A program made the position numbers. Positions 9,001 through 36,000 of a DNA stretch of 62,587 bases are shown here, one piece after another. Position 1 is the stretch's first letter; the number at the start of each line of letters is the position of its first letter. Source of the stretch: Carcharhinus longimanus (lineage: Eukaryota); contig JASCQW010000119.1 in assembly GCA_030264375.1 (NCBI GenBank), positions 47,720,636-47,783,222 on the forward strand, read 5' to 3'.

Positions 9001-12000
9001 NNNNNNNNNNNNNNNNNNNNNNNNNNNNNNNNNNNNNNNNNNNNNNNNNNNNNNNNNNNNGGTGAGGAGCATTTACCTTATCAAAACTTCAGCTAGAAAT
9101 CTTGGCAAGACTCTTCATGTTTAGGAAGTCAGCATGCTAGTTATTTTGAACCCTGATCTGTGCTTAAACATCTGCAGAAGTTGCACCAAGTTGCATTGTT
9201 TTAATTTTATCTAAATGAAACTTTGGATTTCTTATTGTCTGAGTGTCATGCAGTGTAGTACAGTCCCAAACAGATTAGGACGCTTCCGGTTCTAAACAAT
9301 AATATTGCATGGATCCATGCGTTTGTACATAAATTATAGTTTCAGCATCTCTGGGCTAGAAAGGAATTTCATTGTCTTGTGACCATAGCTGTAAAGTTTG
9401 TGCGTGTAATAGTCAGGATTATGCTAAGTTTTAAGGCTTTTTTAGAAGATAGCCTAGCGCCATTTGTTAGCTTGGCTTCTGGTGAAGAACGGTCATTTGG
9501 TTGAAGTACCAGAGCATTGCCACTGTTTGTTTTATCAGAGACTGTATTCTGTGCGTGTTGCCGTTATCGCGAGGGGATAAGTAAAAGTATCTTTCAGTAT
9601 ATCTGTGGTAGTGAATTTATCTTCAATTAGAGGACAGGTGATAAACTGAGCCCTCTATCCCTATGGGGGAAGACCTGTTATTAATTTAAAAAGCTGGTTT
9701 TGTTATGACTAAGATGTTAGTCCATTAAAATGCACAATGCACTATAGATTATTCTATTCTGTCTTCATCTCTTCAAAAAGTGTCAATTTACAAGGGTCTT
9801 CCTATAAACTGTATCTTAAATATTAATGTGGCCATAGTTTGCAGTTTGACTAATTGCTTTAAAGTCCTGTGGATTAAAGAACATGCATCACGTATATTGC
9901 TGCACATGATCTTTTTCTTTTCAACCTTTTTGTGCTGTCAGGTAATGGTTGACTTGGATTTCAGTACATATCTGTCCACAGGTGTTGGAAAATTACTCAG
10001 ATGCTCCAATGACCCCCAAACAGATTCTACACGTTATAGAGACTGAAGGACTCAAAGAAATGAGGTCAGTTGTGGTGAATGGATTTGCTAGGAGAATGTC
10101 AATGGGTTTTGTTAAATATAAATGCTGAATTTGAAAGCAGGGAAGAGTCCTATCTGACCTAGTCTCCTCTTGTAACCTACAGTAATAGATGGGAATCTGC
10201 TTGAGGATTGTTTTATTTTAAATTTGAATCCTAAAGTTATAACTTTTAAAGTCTTTTTGTTTTCCTTTCTTGTGGCCATTATTGGCACTGATGCTTGAGC
10301 CTGCTTTTGTATGTATTCTCCATGGAAATCAGAGTCAGTAGCTAAAATATTGACTCACCAAAGCCTGTCCAACATTTACAATGCACAGGTCAAGAATGTG
10401 CGGGGGAACTTGTCTGAATGAGTGTGTAGCTCCCAACAATGCTGAAGAAGCTCAATGCCATCCAGGACAAAGTAGTCCACTTGATTGGCAGTCCATCCAC
10501 AAACATTCACTTCTCCATCGGCCGAGCGCAGTGGTACAATTCCTGCGATGTGTGCCATCTACAAGATGAACTGCAGGAACTCCTAAAGGCTCCTTAGATT
10601 GTAACTTCCACATCCATGAGCACTACAGTCTAGAATGACAATGGCAGCAGATGCATGGGAATACCACCATCTGGAAGTTCCCCTCACATAACATCCTGAT
10701 TTGGAAATATCCTGGCATTCCTCACTGTTGCTGGATCAAAATCCTTAAACTCCCTTCCTAACAGCTCGAGGTCCATATCCAACATGTGGACAACAGCTGT
10801 TCAAGAAGGCCGTTCACCACTTTCTTAAGGACAATAAATGCTGACCTAGCTAATGATGACCACATCCTATAAAATTATTTTTAGAAAATGGGACTTAGTA
10901 AGCTTCTCAAGGTACATTATCAAAGAAGGCTATGTTGAGCAGTAGAAATGTCATTACTTGTCAGTTTGTTTTTAAAACTATAACAAAAACTATAAGGCAG
11001 GGCTAAAAGGCTGTACAACAGCTGGCAGTGCAAACTAAAGGGAGGACACGAGAGGTGGAAGACAGTGGCACACAGATTGTGACATGAAGCTGGAGACAGT
11101 CACAGAAGTAGACTGGAACAAGGCCTTAGAGATTTGTAAATGAGAATTTAATCATGCAGTGATCTTTTGGAGATCATTAAAGGCAAAGATTGTGGGGAAC
11201 GATACAAGGATCTGTTTTGTTGGAGTTTTGGATGAGTAGGAGTATATGTAAGGCTCAGCAAGGAGGATGTTGGAAAGATGAAGACAAAGGCTACATCCAA
11301 CGGCCAGATCAATATCTAATAAAACCCATTCAAGCCTTGGCTCAAATGTCAGTCATGGTTGAAATTTGAACCGCAGTTTATCGAATGGACATTCAGTAGT
11401 CTTTGTAACTAGAACTGTTAGGCTGTGTACTCTGATTTTTAATGGACGTTGAAGACTTGCTTATTCAGTTGGAAGAAAGAAAAAGGCTTAAGATTATCAA
11501 TTGTTTCAGTCAATGTTTGATTTTTGTTCCAAGGAGACAGTCAAAACACAGTTCATATTAAGTATTGTCTATTTCTCCCATATGCCTCATTTAAATGGCC
11601 ATTAATATTCAGATGCCCCATATTTGCAGCCAATTACTGCCAGACTCACTTCCATTTTAGCAAGCAATTGCTTTATTTGTGTCTCGATAGGAAGAAAACA
11701 AAGAAGAAACAAATACTTGGATTGATATAGTGTTTAAAACGTGCTCTTCAAGTATCAGAATGTTAATGCCCAATTAGTTACTGACTTGCAAAGAGGTTTG
11801 TTGTGTAGACAAGCAAGGTAAATGGAAATTTCTTCTCAAGGCCTCCAGTTTATGGTGAGGAAGTCCAATTCTATTTCATAATATGGGATTCTGGAACAAC
11901 TTCTTGGGGTTTTGAGGATTGTGTTGTACAGCTCTGTGCGTGAAACTCACATCAGTGGTGTTCTGTGTAGTTAATGTGTTGTTAGTGATTTAAGTTTGAC

Positions 12001-33000: not shown

Positions 33001-36000
33001 AATTAAATAAAATAACTCTGAAATGATTTCTGATTCTATTCCCTAAGGGGAATGGATGTTCATTGGCAATGTGAGGTTCCTCAATTAGTAGAAAAATATG
33101 GTCAAATCCAATGTTAATTACACACTGCCACAAAATCTTCCTTAACCTCAGATTATTGCTGTTCCACCAGTCTGATGTTTTTCTCCGAAATTTGTGATCT
33201 TCCCTACTACCTCTAAGTCAAAAGCGCCAATCCAATTTCTGGCATTTCAATGGATATTGCCCTCTCTTAACTAGACTAAGAATGTTCCATCTTCCTCTGG
33301 AGAAAGGTGGGAAGTGATTAATGAACCCCAGCTAGCTTTCAACCTGTACCATCTGTTAAAGGATAGCTGATTAAAAAGTTTAAGGTAGGTTTAATATTCC
33401 ATAATCTAAAACTAATCAAGGTAATTCAATTCATCCTCAATCACCTGCAGTGTTATTGGAGTTGGAACAAAACTTTGCATGGCAGTTATGAATCTGAGTA
33501 TATTTTAGTTGCACTGACGGGAAGATTGAAAATCCAAGCCTGCAAAAATATGCAGCAGAATAATTGAGTTCAATTTTAAGGCAGCTTCATTTTGAGCAAA
33601 TCTTTTGAGCAAAATTTTGAGCAAAAAAGTATGACTTTATCAGCAGACAAGTCTATATCTGGAAACAGTGATGGAAACATTTTGGACAATGTTTTTTAGG
33701 TAGTTAAATAATTCCAGATGGATGTAACCCATGTGCTGTACTTGTCCTATTTATCAAGGGACAATTGTGAAATTCTTCAATCCTTAATATTTCAGGCTGA
33801 TGTCTGAAGCAAAATTATGTGGATTCGTGGAAATCAAAAGACTTAACAATTGCGAACGATTTTGAATCCAATTGTAGTGTTGGCTTGATTATAAAAATCA
33901 AAGTGTCATTTAATTTCCTGTTTTTGGCATCTTTTACAGTTTTTAAAAATGATAGGGAAATTAGCCAGTTGGAGCAGAATATGTGCCAGTGTGCCAATCT
34001 TAACGTTATGAGGTATTTGCATAAAATGTGCTTTTTAATCTATTTTATGTAGTGGAACTTCTCCCTTGGCATGTCTGAATGCTATGCTTCACACTAATTC
34101 TCGTGCAGATGATGGAATGTTTTACAGACTTCCAGGGCGGATGGGTCTTTATACATTGAAGGTAAGAACTATTGTACCATTTTGTTGCAATCACTCTAGG
34201 GATTTCCAAGCTTAGCATTTGTGAGCACCACAGGTGGATACCATGGTCCCTGGTGTCCGTATGAAGAAATAAAGGCGCAGTCACTTTTAATTTGTTTGTG
34301 TATATATATTCAGTTGCAAATATTCACAAATCTTCCAATTTAGGATTTAGCTTGAAATGTGGCAATAGAATCAACAACCTTAATTCCCAAAGCTCCAGAC
34401 TCAAAATCAAAACTGGAGAAATCAATAAGTAATAAACAAGCACAGACTCAGTTACTGGGGCTTCAGGGTCTATTGCGATTCTAGGGTCACTTGTAGCCCA
34501 CAGACTGCAGATTAGACACATCTACTGTCTTATTTACAGTACTCCTATTTTAAAAGAAAACTGTCTTATTAAATTGAAAGGCTTAAATTTCAATGTTATT
34601 TCAAGGGAACAGTTGTTGTAGGGGAGCTACTTTTAGAATAAAGTGTATATTTTTTTTGTCCTGCACAAATAAATTCATTCACCAACTGTACCCTCCCCCG
34701 ACTCTCGGGTCCACTCAGCAGGAATACCTAGTGATAAGTTGCCCTGAGGGCACTGATATTTTGAGAAATATTGCTGGTTTTCTTTACCATGACTTTATAT
34801 TAGGAATTTGTCTGTTGAAGACGTAACAGAACACAAAATGATATGAGGTGGTGTGTATAATCCAACCTTAAATTGAAATCATGTTCACTAATACATTTTG
34901 ATCATGTTATTTGTTCTTTAGCAATGATTGTGTGGCCTGGAAATTAAAATGATGTGGCTGCAAGAACTTTTTGGAAGAGGCTGTGGCCTCCAAGCACTTA
35001 TTCCACACAGTATCATATTACTGCACAGCTGCAGAAAGATATTTTTCAGTGTGTCCCTCCTACTCCCACTGATCTTCAGGCTCTTTTGTTCCTGAAGAAA
35101 ATTTGATGCAGGTTGACATTTTGAAAGACTCCATTCTGAGGCAGATAAAGTATTTGCATGCACAATACTCTGAATGCTCTTGCATTTTCCACCTAACATC
35201 CATACCTTTCTCTCACATGAAAACCATAAAGCTTTATAGAAGACTTGCATCGTTCCTAAGGCATTGAATATTTTCTGTACTTGTTTCATTAACTTCTGTC
35301 TGCAAGCTTATGTTATATTTTTTCAGAGACGTTAGTATGCTGCAGCTAATGTCCATTTAAACAGAACTGATTCAGACTGATTTGGATAAAAGAGCTTGTG
35401 GTTTGGTGTCAAATTATGGATTTTAAAACCAGGTTTAAAGCACCTGATTTAACTTGGAGTATCAGTGTCAGTTGTGATTTAGGCAATAATAGAGTTACAA
35501 TGTAAGTACTATTGTTTGTTAGATTCTTTCAGTTAAATAAAATTTGAATAAAATAAGAATAAAATTTGCATACTGCATGTTCTCACTTTTTTAGACCGAT
35601 AAACTGGGTATTTTCCTGCGAGCAGAGAACTCTTGCATGGAGGGCATGATTGAAGTATATAAAATTGAGGGACATACACAGAAAGCAACTCCTCCCTTAG
35701 AGGAGGGATCAGTGACCTGGGGGATAGATTTAAGGTAGGAGGTTTAGACGGGATCTGAGAGATTACTTTTTCACACACAATGATGGGAGTCTGGAACTTA
35801 GTGCCTGAAAGGGTGGTGGAGGCAGAGACCCTCATAACATGTAACAAATATTTTCATGTGTGCTTACAATGCCAATGCATAAAAGGTGATGGGCCAAGTG
35901 CTGGAAAATAGGATTTGAATGATTAGGTGGTTGTTTTGGCTGGCGCAGATGTGATGAATTGAAGGGCCTTTTCTGATGTAGAGATCTGGAAATGGTGCTG

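What the first reader, a model, noticed from the sequence alone, without database searches (positions are those of the whole stretch)
9905..35563. Candidate multi-layer RNA-processing system controlling the ASXL1 HARE-HTH domain
Seen: the unusual splice and polyA signals I noticed cluster around the exons encoding HARE-HTH. They are a competing frameshifting acceptor at exon 2, a 3-nt microexon, an internal CpG-island exon, several short strong-site exons in intron 3, and two polyA options right after exon 4. Known: ASXL1 is a BAP1 (PR-DUB) cofactor whose N-terminal HARE-HTH is separate from the downstream DEUBAD and PHD domains. Inference: one locus could make full-length, plus/minus-Arg, HARE-disrupted, HARE-only and NMD-targeted products. 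Caveats: pseudo-exons are common in long AT-rich introns, I searched intron 3 more closely than the other introns, and I picked these sites by eye.
[Added by the scan's program, not by the reader: the finding's places include an assembly gap (unread letters, written N; its length is only estimated) at 18446 to 18545, 26582 to 26920. Whether the letters on both sides are continuous or in frame is not known: test that first.]
Basis: partly seen in the sequence, partly recalled or inferred. Interest (0 to 1): 0.7.

Follow-up and report, generated by a model that had tools for sequence, protein, structure and literature searches.

The report
Shark ASXL1 5' exons, ordinary isoform features
This is the front part of a shark-type ASXL1 gene, whose tiny 3-base exon and possible short form are old, widely annotated vertebrate features rather than a new control system.

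Summary
The window holds exons 2-7 of a cartilaginous-fish ASXL1 gene on the + strand; it is not human. Exon 2 (9982-10064), a 3-nt exon AAG (12407-12409) and exon 4 (34053-34161) encode the HARE-HTH domain. Both N runs in the finding lie inside intron 3, so no reading frame crosses them. The contig 18546-26581 carries no ASXL1 exon, so its place rests on the scaffold alone.

Of the five "layers":
- The microexon is real and well supported.
- The sense-strand AATAAA cluster after exon 4 is real and above background.
- The CpG island (18640-19100) is real, but its "exon" is unproven.
- The upstream frameshifting AG at exon 2 exists, but its segment is missing from the Callorhinchus (elephant shark) model.
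- "Strong-site" pseudo-exons in intron 3 are no denser than on the antisense strand or in other introns.

Among 196 named vertebrate ASXL1/ASXL2 models, both the plus-one-residue and minus-one-residue forms occur, and 19 read through the exon-4 donor. A skate model has an alternative first exon joined to exon 4. A human short isoform, a circRNA and a cryptic intron-3 exon are published (Koh 2016).

Nothing shows one coordinated system. Verdict: a known gene architecture, of low novelty. RNA evidence is missing.

The parts
9908..9941 (+). Pyrimidine tract plus upstream AG (cag at 9939-9941), the 'competing' acceptor. It would add 40 nt to exon 2.
   Evidence: Sequence. Translation from 9942 runs into TGA inside exon 2. 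Tract score is 11/16, reached by 13% of 1937 YAG sites. It closes a 62-nt AG-free zone; spacings of 62 nt or more occur in 74 of 3982 cases.
9934..9957 (+). 24-nt segment that holds the upstream AG and a TTGAC branch-point-like motif. It has no counterpart in the Callorhinchus model that reads into this intron.
   Evidence: tblastn of the N-terminus of P0006 aligns 9919-9933 and 9958-9981 with an 8-codon gap over 9934-9957.
9982..10064 (+). ASXL1 exon 2 (83 nt, starts in phase 0, ends with 2 nt of a codon). It encodes [27 protein letters not shown], which is HARE-HTH helix 2.
   Evidence: Pfam HARE-HTH E=8.7e-4, profile positions 10-35. 100% identical to shark ASXL1 models. Donor GAG|GTCAGT scores 7/9.
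12320..12404 (+). AG-free, pyrimidine-rich zone upstream of the microexon.
   Evidence: The AG spacing is 87 nt; spacings this long occur in 22 of 3982 cases in the window.
12407..12409 (+). Candidate 3-nt exon 3 (AAG). With exon 2's last AG and exon 4's first T it reads Arg then Ser. If it is skipped, the junction reads Ser alone.
   Evidence: It is the only site among 91 AG-NNN-GT sites in 10065-34052 that combines YAG, an Arg-Ser-compatible triplet and a donor of at least 8/9 (AAG|GTAAGC). The three other compatible sites have AG-free zones of 2-15 nt. Four of six chondrichthyan ASXL1 models that span the junction carry the extra Arg.
18446..18545 (.). N run in intron 3, directly left of the CpG island.
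   Evidence: The left flank 18369-18445 is 96% identical to 20574-20650. The run was not filled.
18640..19100 (.). CpG island, the only one in the window. It is partly made of 10-51-nt CpG-rich tandem units (18663-18807), with a non-repetitive core at 18808-19088.
   Evidence: GC 0.716, 53 CpG, o/e 0.91; the core has o/e 0.80, against a window o/e of 0.276. Tandem units.
18878..18988 (+). Possible first-exon piece: ATG, then 37 codons, then donor GTG|GTGAGT at 18989. It ends in phase 0 and so is out of frame with exon 4.
   Evidence: No Pfam family.
18640..19061 (+). The only ATG-to-donor reading in the island that is in frame with exon 4: a 140-codon low-complexity ORF ending at donor AGG|GTGAAT at 19062.
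   Evidence: No homologue among 3502 candidates. No Pfam family. Long ORFs are open in all frames of this GC-rich stretch.
19089..20015 (.). 33-bp minisatellite, 28 copies, GC-rich but CpG-poor.
   Evidence: CpG o/e 0.22.
26582..26920 (.). N run in intron 3.
   Evidence: Its right flank is the end of an interspersed repeat that also borders three other N runs. The run was not filled.
34053..34161 (+). ASXL1 exon 4 (109 nt). Its first T completes the split codon; it then encodes [36 protein letters not shown], which is helix 3 plus the wing.
   Evidence: Pfam HARE-HTH E=3.2e-8, 34.3 bits against a cut-off of 25.9, profile positions 37-70. 100% identical to ASXL1 of six chondrichthyan species. 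Donor AAG|GTAAGA scores 8/9.
34162..34215 (+). Read-through of the exon-4 donor: 17 more codons ([17 protein letters not shown]), then TAG.
   Evidence: The query was this ORF.
34268..34273 (+). First AATAAA, 107 nt after exon 4, followed by a T/G-rich stretch. It is a candidate intronic polyA site that would end a HARE-only mRNA.
   Evidence: The T+G fraction is 0.69 at +10..+45. Only 8% of random positions have an AATAAA within 108 nt.
34431..34673 (+). Three further AATAAA (34431, 34637, 34668).
35533..35563 (+). Acceptor-like site (ttctttcag|) followed at once by three AATAAA in an 11-nt tandem repeat. If spliced to exon 4 it would read LNKI then stop.
   Evidence: Tract score 11/16.
45985..46105 (+). 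ASXL1 exon 5 (outside the finding).
   Evidence: tblastn 88-95% identity to shark and skate ASXL1. Boundaries read.
46777..46883 (+). ASXL1 exon 6 (outside the finding).
54041..54158 (+). ASXL1 exon 7 (outside the finding).

Best explanation
The region is the 5' part of a cartilaginous-fish ASXL1 gene.

Domain layout. Exon 2, a 3-nt exon (AAG) and exon 4 encode helix 2, one loop residue, and helix 3 plus the wing of the HARE-HTH domain.

Microexon. Including the 3-nt exon gives ...KEM-R-S-GTSP...; skipping it stays in frame and gives ...KEM-S-GTSP.... This one-residue choice in the helix 2 to helix 3 loop is shared by ASXL1 and ASXL2 across vertebrates. It is therefore old, probably older than the split of the two paralogues (inference).

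Short form. Just after exon 4, an in-frame stop lies at +52..+54 and an AATAAA with a T/G-rich downstream stretch lies at +107. These could end a short HARE-only mRNA. This is the same kind of product as the published human short isoform and the many annotated models that read through this donor. Its use in this species is inferred, not shown.

CpG island. The island in intron 3 is most likely an orphan island or an alternative promoter. Transcripts from it would lack exons 1-3 and so the first half of the domain, as in the annotated skate model.

Background features. The upstream AG at exon 2 and the pseudo-exons of intron 3 are ordinary intron content.

The features are independent, individually known kinds of isoform variation. 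They are not a demonstrated multi-layer system.
For: Gene and exons:
- Pfam HARE-HTH matches both exons.
- Exon 4 is 100% identical to ASXL1 of Callorhinchus, Scyliorhinus, Rhincodon, Chiloscyllium, Carcharodon and Leucoraja.
- Exons 2 and 4-7 were mapped by tblastn.

Microexon:
- It is the unique site combining YAG, an Arg-Ser-compatible triplet and a donor of 8/9. Only 11% of 300 Markov-simulated introns give one or more such site.
- It sits behind an 87-nt AG-free, pyrimidine-rich zone; spacings that long occur in 22 of 3982 cases.
- No alternative GT or AG lies 3 nt away at exon 2 or exon 4, so the extra residue cannot come from a shifted splice site.
- Orthologues P0007, P0008, P0009, P0010 and P0011 read KEMRSGTSP; P0005 and P0006 read KEMSGTSP.
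- In 196 named models, ASXL1-type has 82 with two residues, 13 with one and 1 with three between KE. and G, with 4 not readable. ASXL2-type has 18 with two, 72 with one and 1 with four. Five lack exon 2.
- In the solved ASXL1 chains, exon 4 is residues 49-84, which is the numbering of the plus-residue form.
- An AlphaFold model of a bird ASXL2 short form (P0044, mean pLDDT 66, 75-89 over residues 11-80) puts the residue in the loop 42-51 between helices 31-41 and 52-64.

Short form:
- There are 7 AATAAA on the + strand and 0 on the - strand in 34162-35563.
- None of 897 non-overlapping windows reaches 7 hexamers, and 1.2% reach 4 clusters. Markov simulations give a mean of 1.05.
- 10 of 96 ASXL1-type and 9 of 91 ASXL2-type models continue with V after exon 4, which is a donor read-through. 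Other short mammalian models have other tails.
- Human short and long isoforms with different fourth exons are reported in Koh 2016, PMC5063410 (abstract and passages).

CpG island:
- It is the only island in 62.6 kb.
- The skate P0012 starts with 25 unrelated residues joined directly to exon 4.
- Dinan 2017, PMC5644247 (passages), states that annotated human ASXL1/2 isoforms differ only N-terminally, through several initiation sites.

Background:
- Pseudo-exon pairs in intron 3 on the + strand number 0.61/kb, against 0.94/kb on the - strand and 0.78-2.13/kb in other introns. The picture is the same at four other thresholds.
Against: - No RNA data were available, so inclusion or skipping of the microexon, use of any polyA site and any transcription start at the island are all unshown in this species.
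- One-residue models may partly be annotation misses of a 3-nt exon. Many of the ASXL1-type ones are UniProt/Ensembl-derived.
- The microexon could instead lie in an N run.
- None of the 8 chondrichthyan ASXL1 clusters found is a short HARE-only form.
- The exon-4 donor is strong (8/9), which would work against use of a polyA site 107 nt downstream.
- Three of the 7 AATAAA come from one 11-nt tandem repeat. On the - strand of the window, 9% of windows reach 4 clusters. The region was picked by eye.
- The island has no similarity to the skate first exon or to exon 1, and part of it is tandem repeat.
- The ATG at 18878 with the best donor is out of frame with exon 4.
- The contig holding the island lies between two N runs.
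Confidence: 0.7

Rival explanations
1. The five features form one multi-layer RNA-processing system that sets how much full-length, plus/minus-Arg, HARE-disrupted, HARE-only and NMD-targeted ASXL1 is made.
For: - All five feature types are in the sequence.
- Exon 2 has an unusually short AG-free zone, with a strong tract in front of the upstream AG.
- The AATAAA cluster is above background.
- In human cells the same exons show a short isoform, a circRNA, a cryptic intron-3 exon and promiscuous splicing (Koh 2016, passages).
Against: - Pseudo-exon density is at or below the antisense and other-intron levels.
- The segment with the competing AG is absent from the Callorhinchus model.
- No link between the features is shown.
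- There are no RNA data for this species.
Confidence: 0.07
2. Only canonical splicing matters here. The 3-nt exon is constitutive. The one-residue models elsewhere are annotation misses. The island is a silent orphan island or a young CpG-rich tandem repeat. The AATAAA cluster is unused intron sequence.
For: - Five of the six chondrichthyan models with exon 2 that come from NCBI carry the Arg. The two without it are UniProt models of one species that also read into the intron or carry an odd first exon.
- No chondrichthyan short form was found.
- The exon-4 donor is strong.
- The island is partly tandem repeat.
- No homologue was found for its ORF.
Against: - Both forms are annotated within single species by NCBI: Haliaeetus leucocephalus X2 against X4/X6, and Haliaeetus albicilla X1 against X2.
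- NCBI one-residue ASXL1 isoforms exist in Struthio and Polyodon.
- Read-through or alternative-end short models recur in 19 or more models of both paralogues.
- A human short isoform was verified by PCR.
- The island keeps CpG o/e 0.8-0.9 against a background of 0.28.
Confidence: 0.2
3. The 'internal' CpG island is a scaffolding artefact. The stretch 18546-26581, bounded by N runs on both sides, belongs elsewhere (for example upstream of exon 2, or at another locus) or is inverted.
For: - This stretch carries no ASXL1 exon that would fix its place or strand.
- Both bordering N runs sit in repeat copies.
- Other N runs in the window show overlapping contig ends, a sign of a rough assembly.
- Exon 1 and its expected island are missing from the window.
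Against: - The island holds no exon-1 coding sequence on either strand.
- A skate model shows that a first exon between exons 3 and 4 is plausible.
- Nothing in the window contradicts the given order.
Confidence: 0.12

Closest known systems
Annotated ASXL1 of other cartilaginous fishes (Scyliorhinus canicula X3, Carcharodon carcharias X4, Chiloscyllium punctatum X2, Rhincodon typus X2, Callorhinchus milii, Leucoraja erinacea; P0007-P0012)
   Same: Exons 2 and 4 are 96-100% identical. Exons 5-7 are 77-100% identical. The KEM-R-S-GTSP junction is the same. The skate model has an alternative first exon joined to exon 4.
   Different: Exon 1 is not in the window. The skate's first exon has no detectable similarity to the window's island. 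No model is identical over all exons, so the window comes from another species or assembly.
Human ASXL1 5' isoforms: short and long linear forms, circRNA of the HARE-HTH exons, cryptic exon 3* (Koh et al. 2016, PMC5063410)
   Same: The same exons are involved. The short form ends soon after the exon that closes the HARE-HTH. There is a cryptic exon in the long intron before that exon (passages).
   Different: The human short form uses its own fourth exon. Here the nearest candidates are a donor read-through ending at 34268 or a tiny spliced end at 35533. Human circularisation depends on inverted Alu elements. In the window, no inverted pair brackets exons 2-4. The paper does not mention the 3-nt exon ('3 bp' has 0 occurrences).
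Vertebrate ASXL2 isoforms with and without one extra residue (KEI-R-S-GT against KEI-S-GT)
   Same: The insertion is at the same position, of the same size and mostly the same residue. Both forms are annotated within one species.
   Different: The default is opposite. ASXL2-type models mostly lack the residue (72 of 91), while ASXL1-type models mostly carry it (82 of 96 readable).
Alternatively spliced 3-nt microexons in other genes (for example Drosophila homothorax micro-Ex8, PMC7392893; seen as search listing and abstract only)
   Same: A 3-nt exon adds one residue to a DNA-binding regulator.
   Different: It is an unrelated gene and phylum. Regulation and function are untested here.
Orphan (intragenic) CpG islands acting as alternative promoters (recalled general knowledge; no call)
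   Same: A CpG-rich, unmethylated-looking island sits inside a long intron of a CpG-poor gene body, with donor sites just downstream.
   Different: No evidence of a transcription start was available. Part of the island is tandem repeat.

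Membership tests
ASXL1 orthologue (HARE-HTH-coding exons) | HARE-HTH (PF05066) match | tested here: met
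   Exon 4 alone scores 34.3 bits against a cut-off of 25.9 (E=3.2e-8). Exon 2 alone scores 20.1 bits, below the cut-off (E=8.7e-4). Together they cover profile positions 10-35 and 37-70 of 71. The exons were searched one by one; no joined model was scanned.
ASXL1 orthologue (HARE-HTH-coding exons) | Closer to ASXL1 than to ASXL2 or ASXL3 | tested here: met
   Exon 4 is 100% identical to chondrichthyan ASXL1 and 81-86% to ASXL2 models. Named hits for exon 2 are all ASXL1 or unnamed-family HARE-HTH proteins. Exons 5-7 match shark ASXL1.
ASXL1 orthologue (HARE-HTH-coding exons) | Downstream DEUBAD/ASXH and PHD parts of the same gene | not testable with these tools
   The window ends after exon 7. 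The later exons are not in it.
Conserved 3-nt microexon | AG...GT-flanked triplet, in frame, giving the residues seen in orthologues | tested here: met
   12407-12409 reads tag|AAG|gtaagc and gives Arg-Ser, as in P0007-P0011.
Conserved 3-nt microexon | Real 3' splice-site context (long AG-free pyrimidine zone) | tested here: met
   It has an 87-nt AG-free zone. The other three compatible sites have 2-15 nt.
Conserved 3-nt microexon | Junction reads that show inclusion and skipping in this species | not testable with these tools
   No RNA data or vertebrate read sets were on hand.
Conserved 3-nt microexon | Flanking intron conserved in other chondrichthyans | not testable with these tools
   No vertebrate genome collection was available; genome contigs holds bacteria and archaea only.
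Intronic polyadenylation giving a truncated (HARE-only) protein | In-frame stop, then AATAAA, then a U/GU-rich downstream element | tested here: met
   TAG at 34213-34215, AATAAA at 34268, and a T+G fraction of 0.69 downstream.
Intronic polyadenylation giving a truncated (HARE-only) protein | Hexamer density above background, in the sense strand only | tested here: met
   7 on the + strand against 0 on the - strand. None of 897 windows reaches 7, and 1.2% reach 4 clusters. The choice of region was post hoc.
Intronic polyadenylation giving a truncated (HARE-only) protein | Mapped 3' ends, or a short isoform annotated in close relatives | tested here: not met
   None of the 8 chondrichthyan ASXL1 clusters is short. 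Short forms were seen only in teleosts, mammals and ASXL2. 3'-end data were not available.
Alternative promoter at an intragenic CpG island | Island criteria (GC>0.5, o/e>0.6, >200 nt) | tested here: met
   18640-19100 is 461 nt with GC 0.716 and o/e 0.91.
Alternative promoter at an intragenic CpG island | First exon with a donor that joins exon 4 in frame, conserved in relatives | tested here: inconclusive
   The best donor (18989) is out of frame. The in-frame reading (ATG 18640 to donor 19062) is low-complexity with no homologue. The skate has such an exon, but without sequence similarity.
Alternative promoter at an intragenic CpG island | Capped 5' ends | not testable with these tools
   No CAGE or RNA data.
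Regulated unproductive splicing (poison exons or acceptors, AS-NMD) | Candidate sites denser than background | tested here: not met
   intron 3 on the + strand is at or below the - strand and the other introns at all five thresholds.
Regulated unproductive splicing (poison exons or acceptors, AS-NMD) | Conservation of the alternative site | tested here: not met
   The 24 nt with the upstream AG have no counterpart in the Callorhinchus intron read-through. This rests on one species and an indirect test.

The most novel reading that the evidence does not exclude
The 3-nt exon is an ancient microexon, older than the ASXL1/ASXL2 duplication. It is regulated, and it lengthens the helix 2 to helix 3 loop of the HARE-HTH by one mostly basic residue. 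The two paralogues have opposite defaults: ASXL1 mostly includes it and ASXL2 mostly skips it. Together with an equally old HARE-only truncation after exon 4 and an internal promoter that removes the first half of the domain, it would give vertebrates a conserved way to tune or uncouple the N-terminal nucleic-acid-binding module of the BAP1 cofactor. The searchable literature does not seem to discuss this: searches found no paper on an ASXL microexon.
Probability: 0.15. Interest if true: 0.5.

Novelty: already known. Interest (0 to 1): 0.2.

Why it matters
ASXL1 is the BAP1 (PR-DUB) cofactor. It is truncated in myeloid cancers and in Bohring-Opitz syndrome. The role of its N-terminal HARE-HTH is poorly understood.

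The window shows that a cartilaginous fish has the same exon layout as other vertebrates: an 83-nt exon, a 3-nt exon and a 109-nt exon, with a stop and polyA signals straight after. This places the layout, and probably the one-residue and HARE-only variants, at the base of jawed vertebrates. That is a modest evolutionary point and a useful annotation note, because 3-nt exons are often missed. It is not a new mechanism.

Tried and rejected
- Exon 1 (as in P0007 and P0011) was searched for on both strands by motif and by permissive tblastn. It was not found; the best hits had E>=0.6 and none lay in the island.
- The skate alternative first exon was compared with the window. Only low-complexity chance hits came up, with E>=0.098.
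- The island ORF (140 aa) was searched against the protein collection. None of 3502 candidates passed. Pfam found nothing.
- The ten longest ORFs of intron 3 were scanned against Pfam to look for a nested gene. There were 0 families.
- Rfam over the whole window gave 0 matches. A tRNA scan gave 0.
- Recursive splicing at cag|gtaatgg (9939-9947) was considered and dropped. The second step would need a 40-nt intron, which is too short for a vertebrate spliceosome (general knowledge).
- The extra Arg coming from a shifted donor or acceptor was rejected. No GT lies 3 nt after the exon-2 donor and no AG lies 3 nt before the exon-4 acceptor.
- Inverted repeats that could circularise exons 2-4 were looked for. 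None was found between intron 1 and intron 4.
- The listing of cluster members, which would list the isoforms of each shark gene, was switched off, so the isoform sets stayed unseen.
- Literature on an ASXL microexon: searches found nothing relevant. The one paper holding both words (PMC13542418) mentions ASXL1 only in a clinical sentence.

Full report
WHAT THE WINDOW IS

The window is 62,587 nt with GC 0.39 and CpG o/e 0.276, and it carries 11 N runs. I do not take it for human.

A motif scan and tblastn with shark proteins place ASXL1 exons on the + strand:

| Exon | Coordinates | Length |
|---|---|---|
| 2 | 9982-10064 | 83 nt |
| 4 | 34053-34161 | 109 nt |
| 5 | 45985-46105 | 121 nt |
| 6 | 46777-46883 | 107 nt |
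| 7 | 54041-54158 | 118 nt |

- Exon 4 alone passes the Pfam HARE-HTH cut-off (34.3 bits against 25.9). Exon 2 alone gives E=8.7e-4.
- The exon-4 peptide is 100% identical to ASXL1 of Callorhinchus, Scyliorhinus, Rhincodon, Chiloscyllium, Carcharodon and Leucoraja, and 81-86% identical to ASXL2 models.
- Exon 1 (MKDKQKKKKDRTWAEAARM in P0007) is not in the window on either strand.
- All searches were made exon by exon, or with contiguous window stretches. The joined (spliced) model was never built, translated, searched or folded. Frame statements below come from exon lengths and from the bases at the exon ends.

THE N RUNS, TESTED FIRST

- N runs 18446-18545 and 26582-26920 both lie between the microexon and exon 4, that is, in intron 3. 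No exon and no reading frame crosses them, so "in frame" does not arise.
- Continuity cannot be shown from the window.
- The last 77 nt before 18446 are 96% identical to 20574-20650. The 72 nt after 26920 are the end of an interspersed repeat that also borders the N runs at 36837-36936, 50468-51337 and 52648-52747. The breaks therefore sit in repeat copies.
- The stretch between the two runs (18546-26581) holds the CpG island but no ASXL1 exon. Its place and strand depend on the scaffold alone.
- The letters of the runs were not sought.

LAYER 1: THE EXON-2 ACCEPTOR

- The true acceptor (ccacag|GTG at 9981/9982) is fixed by homology. Orthologues read ...ARM|VLENY.
- Forty nt upstream, a 29-nt pyrimidine tract ends in cag (9939-9941). 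Using it gives a frameshift and TGA inside exon 2.
- A second AG at 9963-9964 would add 17 nt and also gives a stop.
- Exon 2 has the shortest AG-free zone of the six mapped acceptors: 17 nt, against 87, 40, 30, 34 and 32. The upstream AG closes a 62-nt AG-free zone; spacings of 62 nt or more occur in 74 of 3982 cases.
- By the crude tract score, however, 13% of 1937 YAG sites do as well.
- A Callorhinchus UniProt model that reads into this intron (P0006) aligns to 9919-9933 and 9958-9981 with an 8-codon gap exactly over 9934-9957, the piece that holds the upstream AG. The competing site is not shared with that species. The flanks are strikingly conserved ([26 protein letters not shown]).
- A TTGAC at 9949-9953 could be the branch point for the true AG. 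This is inference.

LAYER 2: THE 3-NT EXON

- Exon 2 ends with AG, two bases of a codon. Exon 4 starts with T, which completes a codon.
- Four of six chondrichthyan models that span the junction read KEM-R-S-GTSP, and two read KEM-S-GTSP. Rhincodon X2 also carries the Arg.
- No GT lies 3 nt after the exon-2 donor and no AG lies 3 nt before the exon-4 acceptor. The extra residue therefore needs a separate 3-nt exon.
- There are 91 AG-NNN-GT sites between the two exons. Four are compatible with Arg-Ser. Only 12407-12409 (tgtag|AAG|gtaagc) has a YAG and a donor of 8/9.
- It lies behind an 87-nt AG-free, pyrimidine-rich zone; spacings that long occur in 22 of 3982 cases. The other three compatible sites have zones of 5, 15 and 2 nt.
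- Markov simulations give one or more sites of this kind, not counting the AG-free zone, in 11% of 300 introns.
- I take this as the microexon. The caveat is that a rival could hide in an N run.
- Skipping it stays in frame and removes the Arg.

LAYER 3: THE CpG ISLAND

- 18640-19100 has GC 0.716, 53 CpG and o/e 0.91. It is the only island in the window.
- Part of it is CpG-rich tandem units of 10-51 nt (18663-18807). The core 18808-19088 is non-repetitive with o/e 0.80.
- A 33-bp, 28-copy, CpG-poor minisatellite follows it.
- The best donor (GTG|GTGAGT at 18989) follows an ATG at 18878 and 37 codons, but it ends in phase 0, out of frame with exon 4.
- The only in-frame reading runs from ATG 18640 to AGG|GTGAAT at 19062. 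It is 140 low-complexity codons, has no homologue among 3502 candidates and no Pfam family.
- The skate model P0012 starts with 25 unrelated residues joined straight to exon 4. A first exon in this intron is therefore plausible in elasmobranchs, but it shows no similarity to the window.
- The ten longest ORFs of intron 3 carry no Pfam domain, so no nested gene was seen.

LAYER 4: SHORT STRONG-SITE EXONS IN INTRON 3

- I used a simple, stated score. An acceptor is YAG with at least n pyrimidines among 16. A donor is scored by matches to MAG|GTRAGT. Exon length is 3-250 nt.
- Intron 3 on the + strand has 0.61 pairs/kb at 12/16 and 7/9. The - strand has 0.94, and the other introns have 0.78-2.13. 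The ranking is the same at four other thresholds.
- This layer is background.
- The score is crude. True acceptors score only 9-13 of 16.

LAYER 5: polyA SIGNALS AFTER EXON 4

- In 34162-35563 there are 7 AATAAA on the + strand (34268, 34431, 34637, 34668, 35536, 35547, 35558) and none on the - strand. The window mean is 1.24 per 1402 nt.
- None of 897 non-overlapping windows reaches 7. Counted as 4 clusters, 1.2% of windows do. Markov simulations give a mean of 1.05.
- Three of the hexamers belong to one 11-nt tandem repeat. On the - strand of the window, 9% of windows reach 4 clusters. The region was chosen by eye.
- The first signal is well placed. Read-through of the donor adds 17 codons and TAG (34213-34215). 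AATAAA follows at +107, with a T/G-rich stretch after it.
- At 35532/35533 an acceptor-like site is followed at once by the triple AATAAA and would read LNKI-stop.

COMPARISON WITH WHAT IS KNOWN

The comparison covers 196 named vertebrate models. Thirty-nine unnamed hits were left out and not used.

| Model type | Two residues between KE. and G | One residue | Other | Not readable |
|---|---|---|---|---|
| ASXL1-type | 82 | 13 | 1 (three residues) | 4 |
| ASXL2-type | 18 | 72 | 1 (four residues) | 0 |

Five further models lack exon 2.

- Both forms are annotated within one species, for example Haliaeetus leucocephalus X2 against X4/X6.
- After exon 4, 10 of 96 ASXL1-type and 9 of 91 ASXL2-type models go on with V, a donor read-through. 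Several short mammalian ASXL1 isoforms have other tails.
- None of the 8 chondrichthyan clusters is short.
- In solved PR-DUB structures, exon 4 is residues 49-84 of ASXL1, which is the numbering of the plus-residue form.
- A model of a bird ASXL2 short form (P0044; 14-row alignment; mean pLDDT 66, 75-89 over residues 11-80) gives helices 13-23, 31-41 and 52-64 and strands 71-73 and 80-83. The extra residue (47) falls in the loop 42-51.

Literature:
- Koh et al. 2016 (PMC5063410; abstract and passages) report human short and long isoforms with different fourth exons, a circRNA of the two HARE-HTH exons, a cryptic exon in the intron between them and the next exon, and promiscuous splicing.
- Dinan et al. 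2017 (PMC5644247; passages) note that annotated human isoforms differ only N-terminally.
- A 2024 review (PMC11121404; passages) covers circASXL1 and contains neither 'isoform' nor 'alternative splicing'.
- Searches for an ASXL microexon found nothing relevant.

HOW IT MOST LIKELY WORKS

Shown:
- The exon layout.
- The frame arithmetic.
- The presence and statistics of the sites.
- The isoform diversity in annotation of other species.

Inferred:
- The 3-nt exon is included in most ASXL1 mRNA and sometimes skipped. This changes the helix 2 to helix 3 loop by one basic residue.
- A minority of transcripts end after exon 4 and encode a HARE-only protein.
- The island may start transcripts that lack exons 1-3. 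Their first in-frame Met would lie in exon 4, so the domain would be cut in half.
- Exons 2+3+4 total 195 nt and run from phase 0 to phase 0. Their joint skipping, or their circularisation, would keep the frame.

Nothing ties these events together.

LIMITS

- No RNA data were available.
- No vertebrate genome collection was available, so intron conservation is untested apart from the indirect Callorhinchus case.
- Paper supplements were closed.
- The splice scores are home-made.
- Counts of models reflect annotation pipelines, not expression.

Noticed in passing
window 19089-20015: A 33-bp minisatellite with 28 copies at 79% matches. It is GC 0.66 but CpG o/e 0.22, and it directly abuts the CpG island.
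   Followed up: partly
window 1516-1615 and 36837-36936: The 39 nt before the first N run equal the 39 nt after it. The 21 nt before the second equal the 21 nt after it, both at 100%. The contig ends overlap, so these gaps probably have no real length.
   Followed up: partly
window 26921-26992, 36941-37012, 51338-51402, 52575-52646: Four N runs are bordered by the same repeat end of about 70 nt, 97-100% identical, one copy inverted. The N runs sit in copies of one interspersed repeat.
   Followed up: partly
window 9919-9981: The intron sequence just upstream of exon 2 is conserved with Callorhinchus at the level of a translated read-through: 4 of 5 and 7 of 8 residues on the two sides of a 24-nt insertion/deletion. 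This is unusually tight for intron sequence between lineages that split very long ago.
   Followed up: partly
window 9982-34161 (exons 2, 3, 4): The exon lengths 83+3+109 total 195 nt and run from phase 0 to phase 0. Skipping all three, or circularising them, keeps the reading frame. A circle would carry an ORF with several Met codons and no stop.
   Followed up: no
window 1245-1497 and 20268-20520: An inverted repeat pair, 78% over 255 nt, brackets exon 2 and the microexon at about 8 kb on each side. No inverted pair brackets exons 2-4.
   Followed up: no
proteins P0003-P0237: The two paralogues have opposite defaults. 82 of 96 readable ASXL1-type models carry the extra loop residue, but only 18 of 91 ASXL2-type models do. 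Lizards have Lys, and a snake and a lemur have Ser, at that position.
   Followed up: partly
window 22001-26000 and 36001-42000: GC skew is strongly positive (0.21-0.34) over several kb of intron. This is unexplained. The stretches hold long - strand ORFs without a Pfam match where tested.
   Followed up: no
window 41223-41585 and 50153-50467: There are ORFs with the tail motif typical of LINE reverse-transcriptase ORFs (...LEFRRMRGDLIE...). The label is recalled, not tested. Related copies lie at 41349-41513 and 45367-45521.
   Followed up: no
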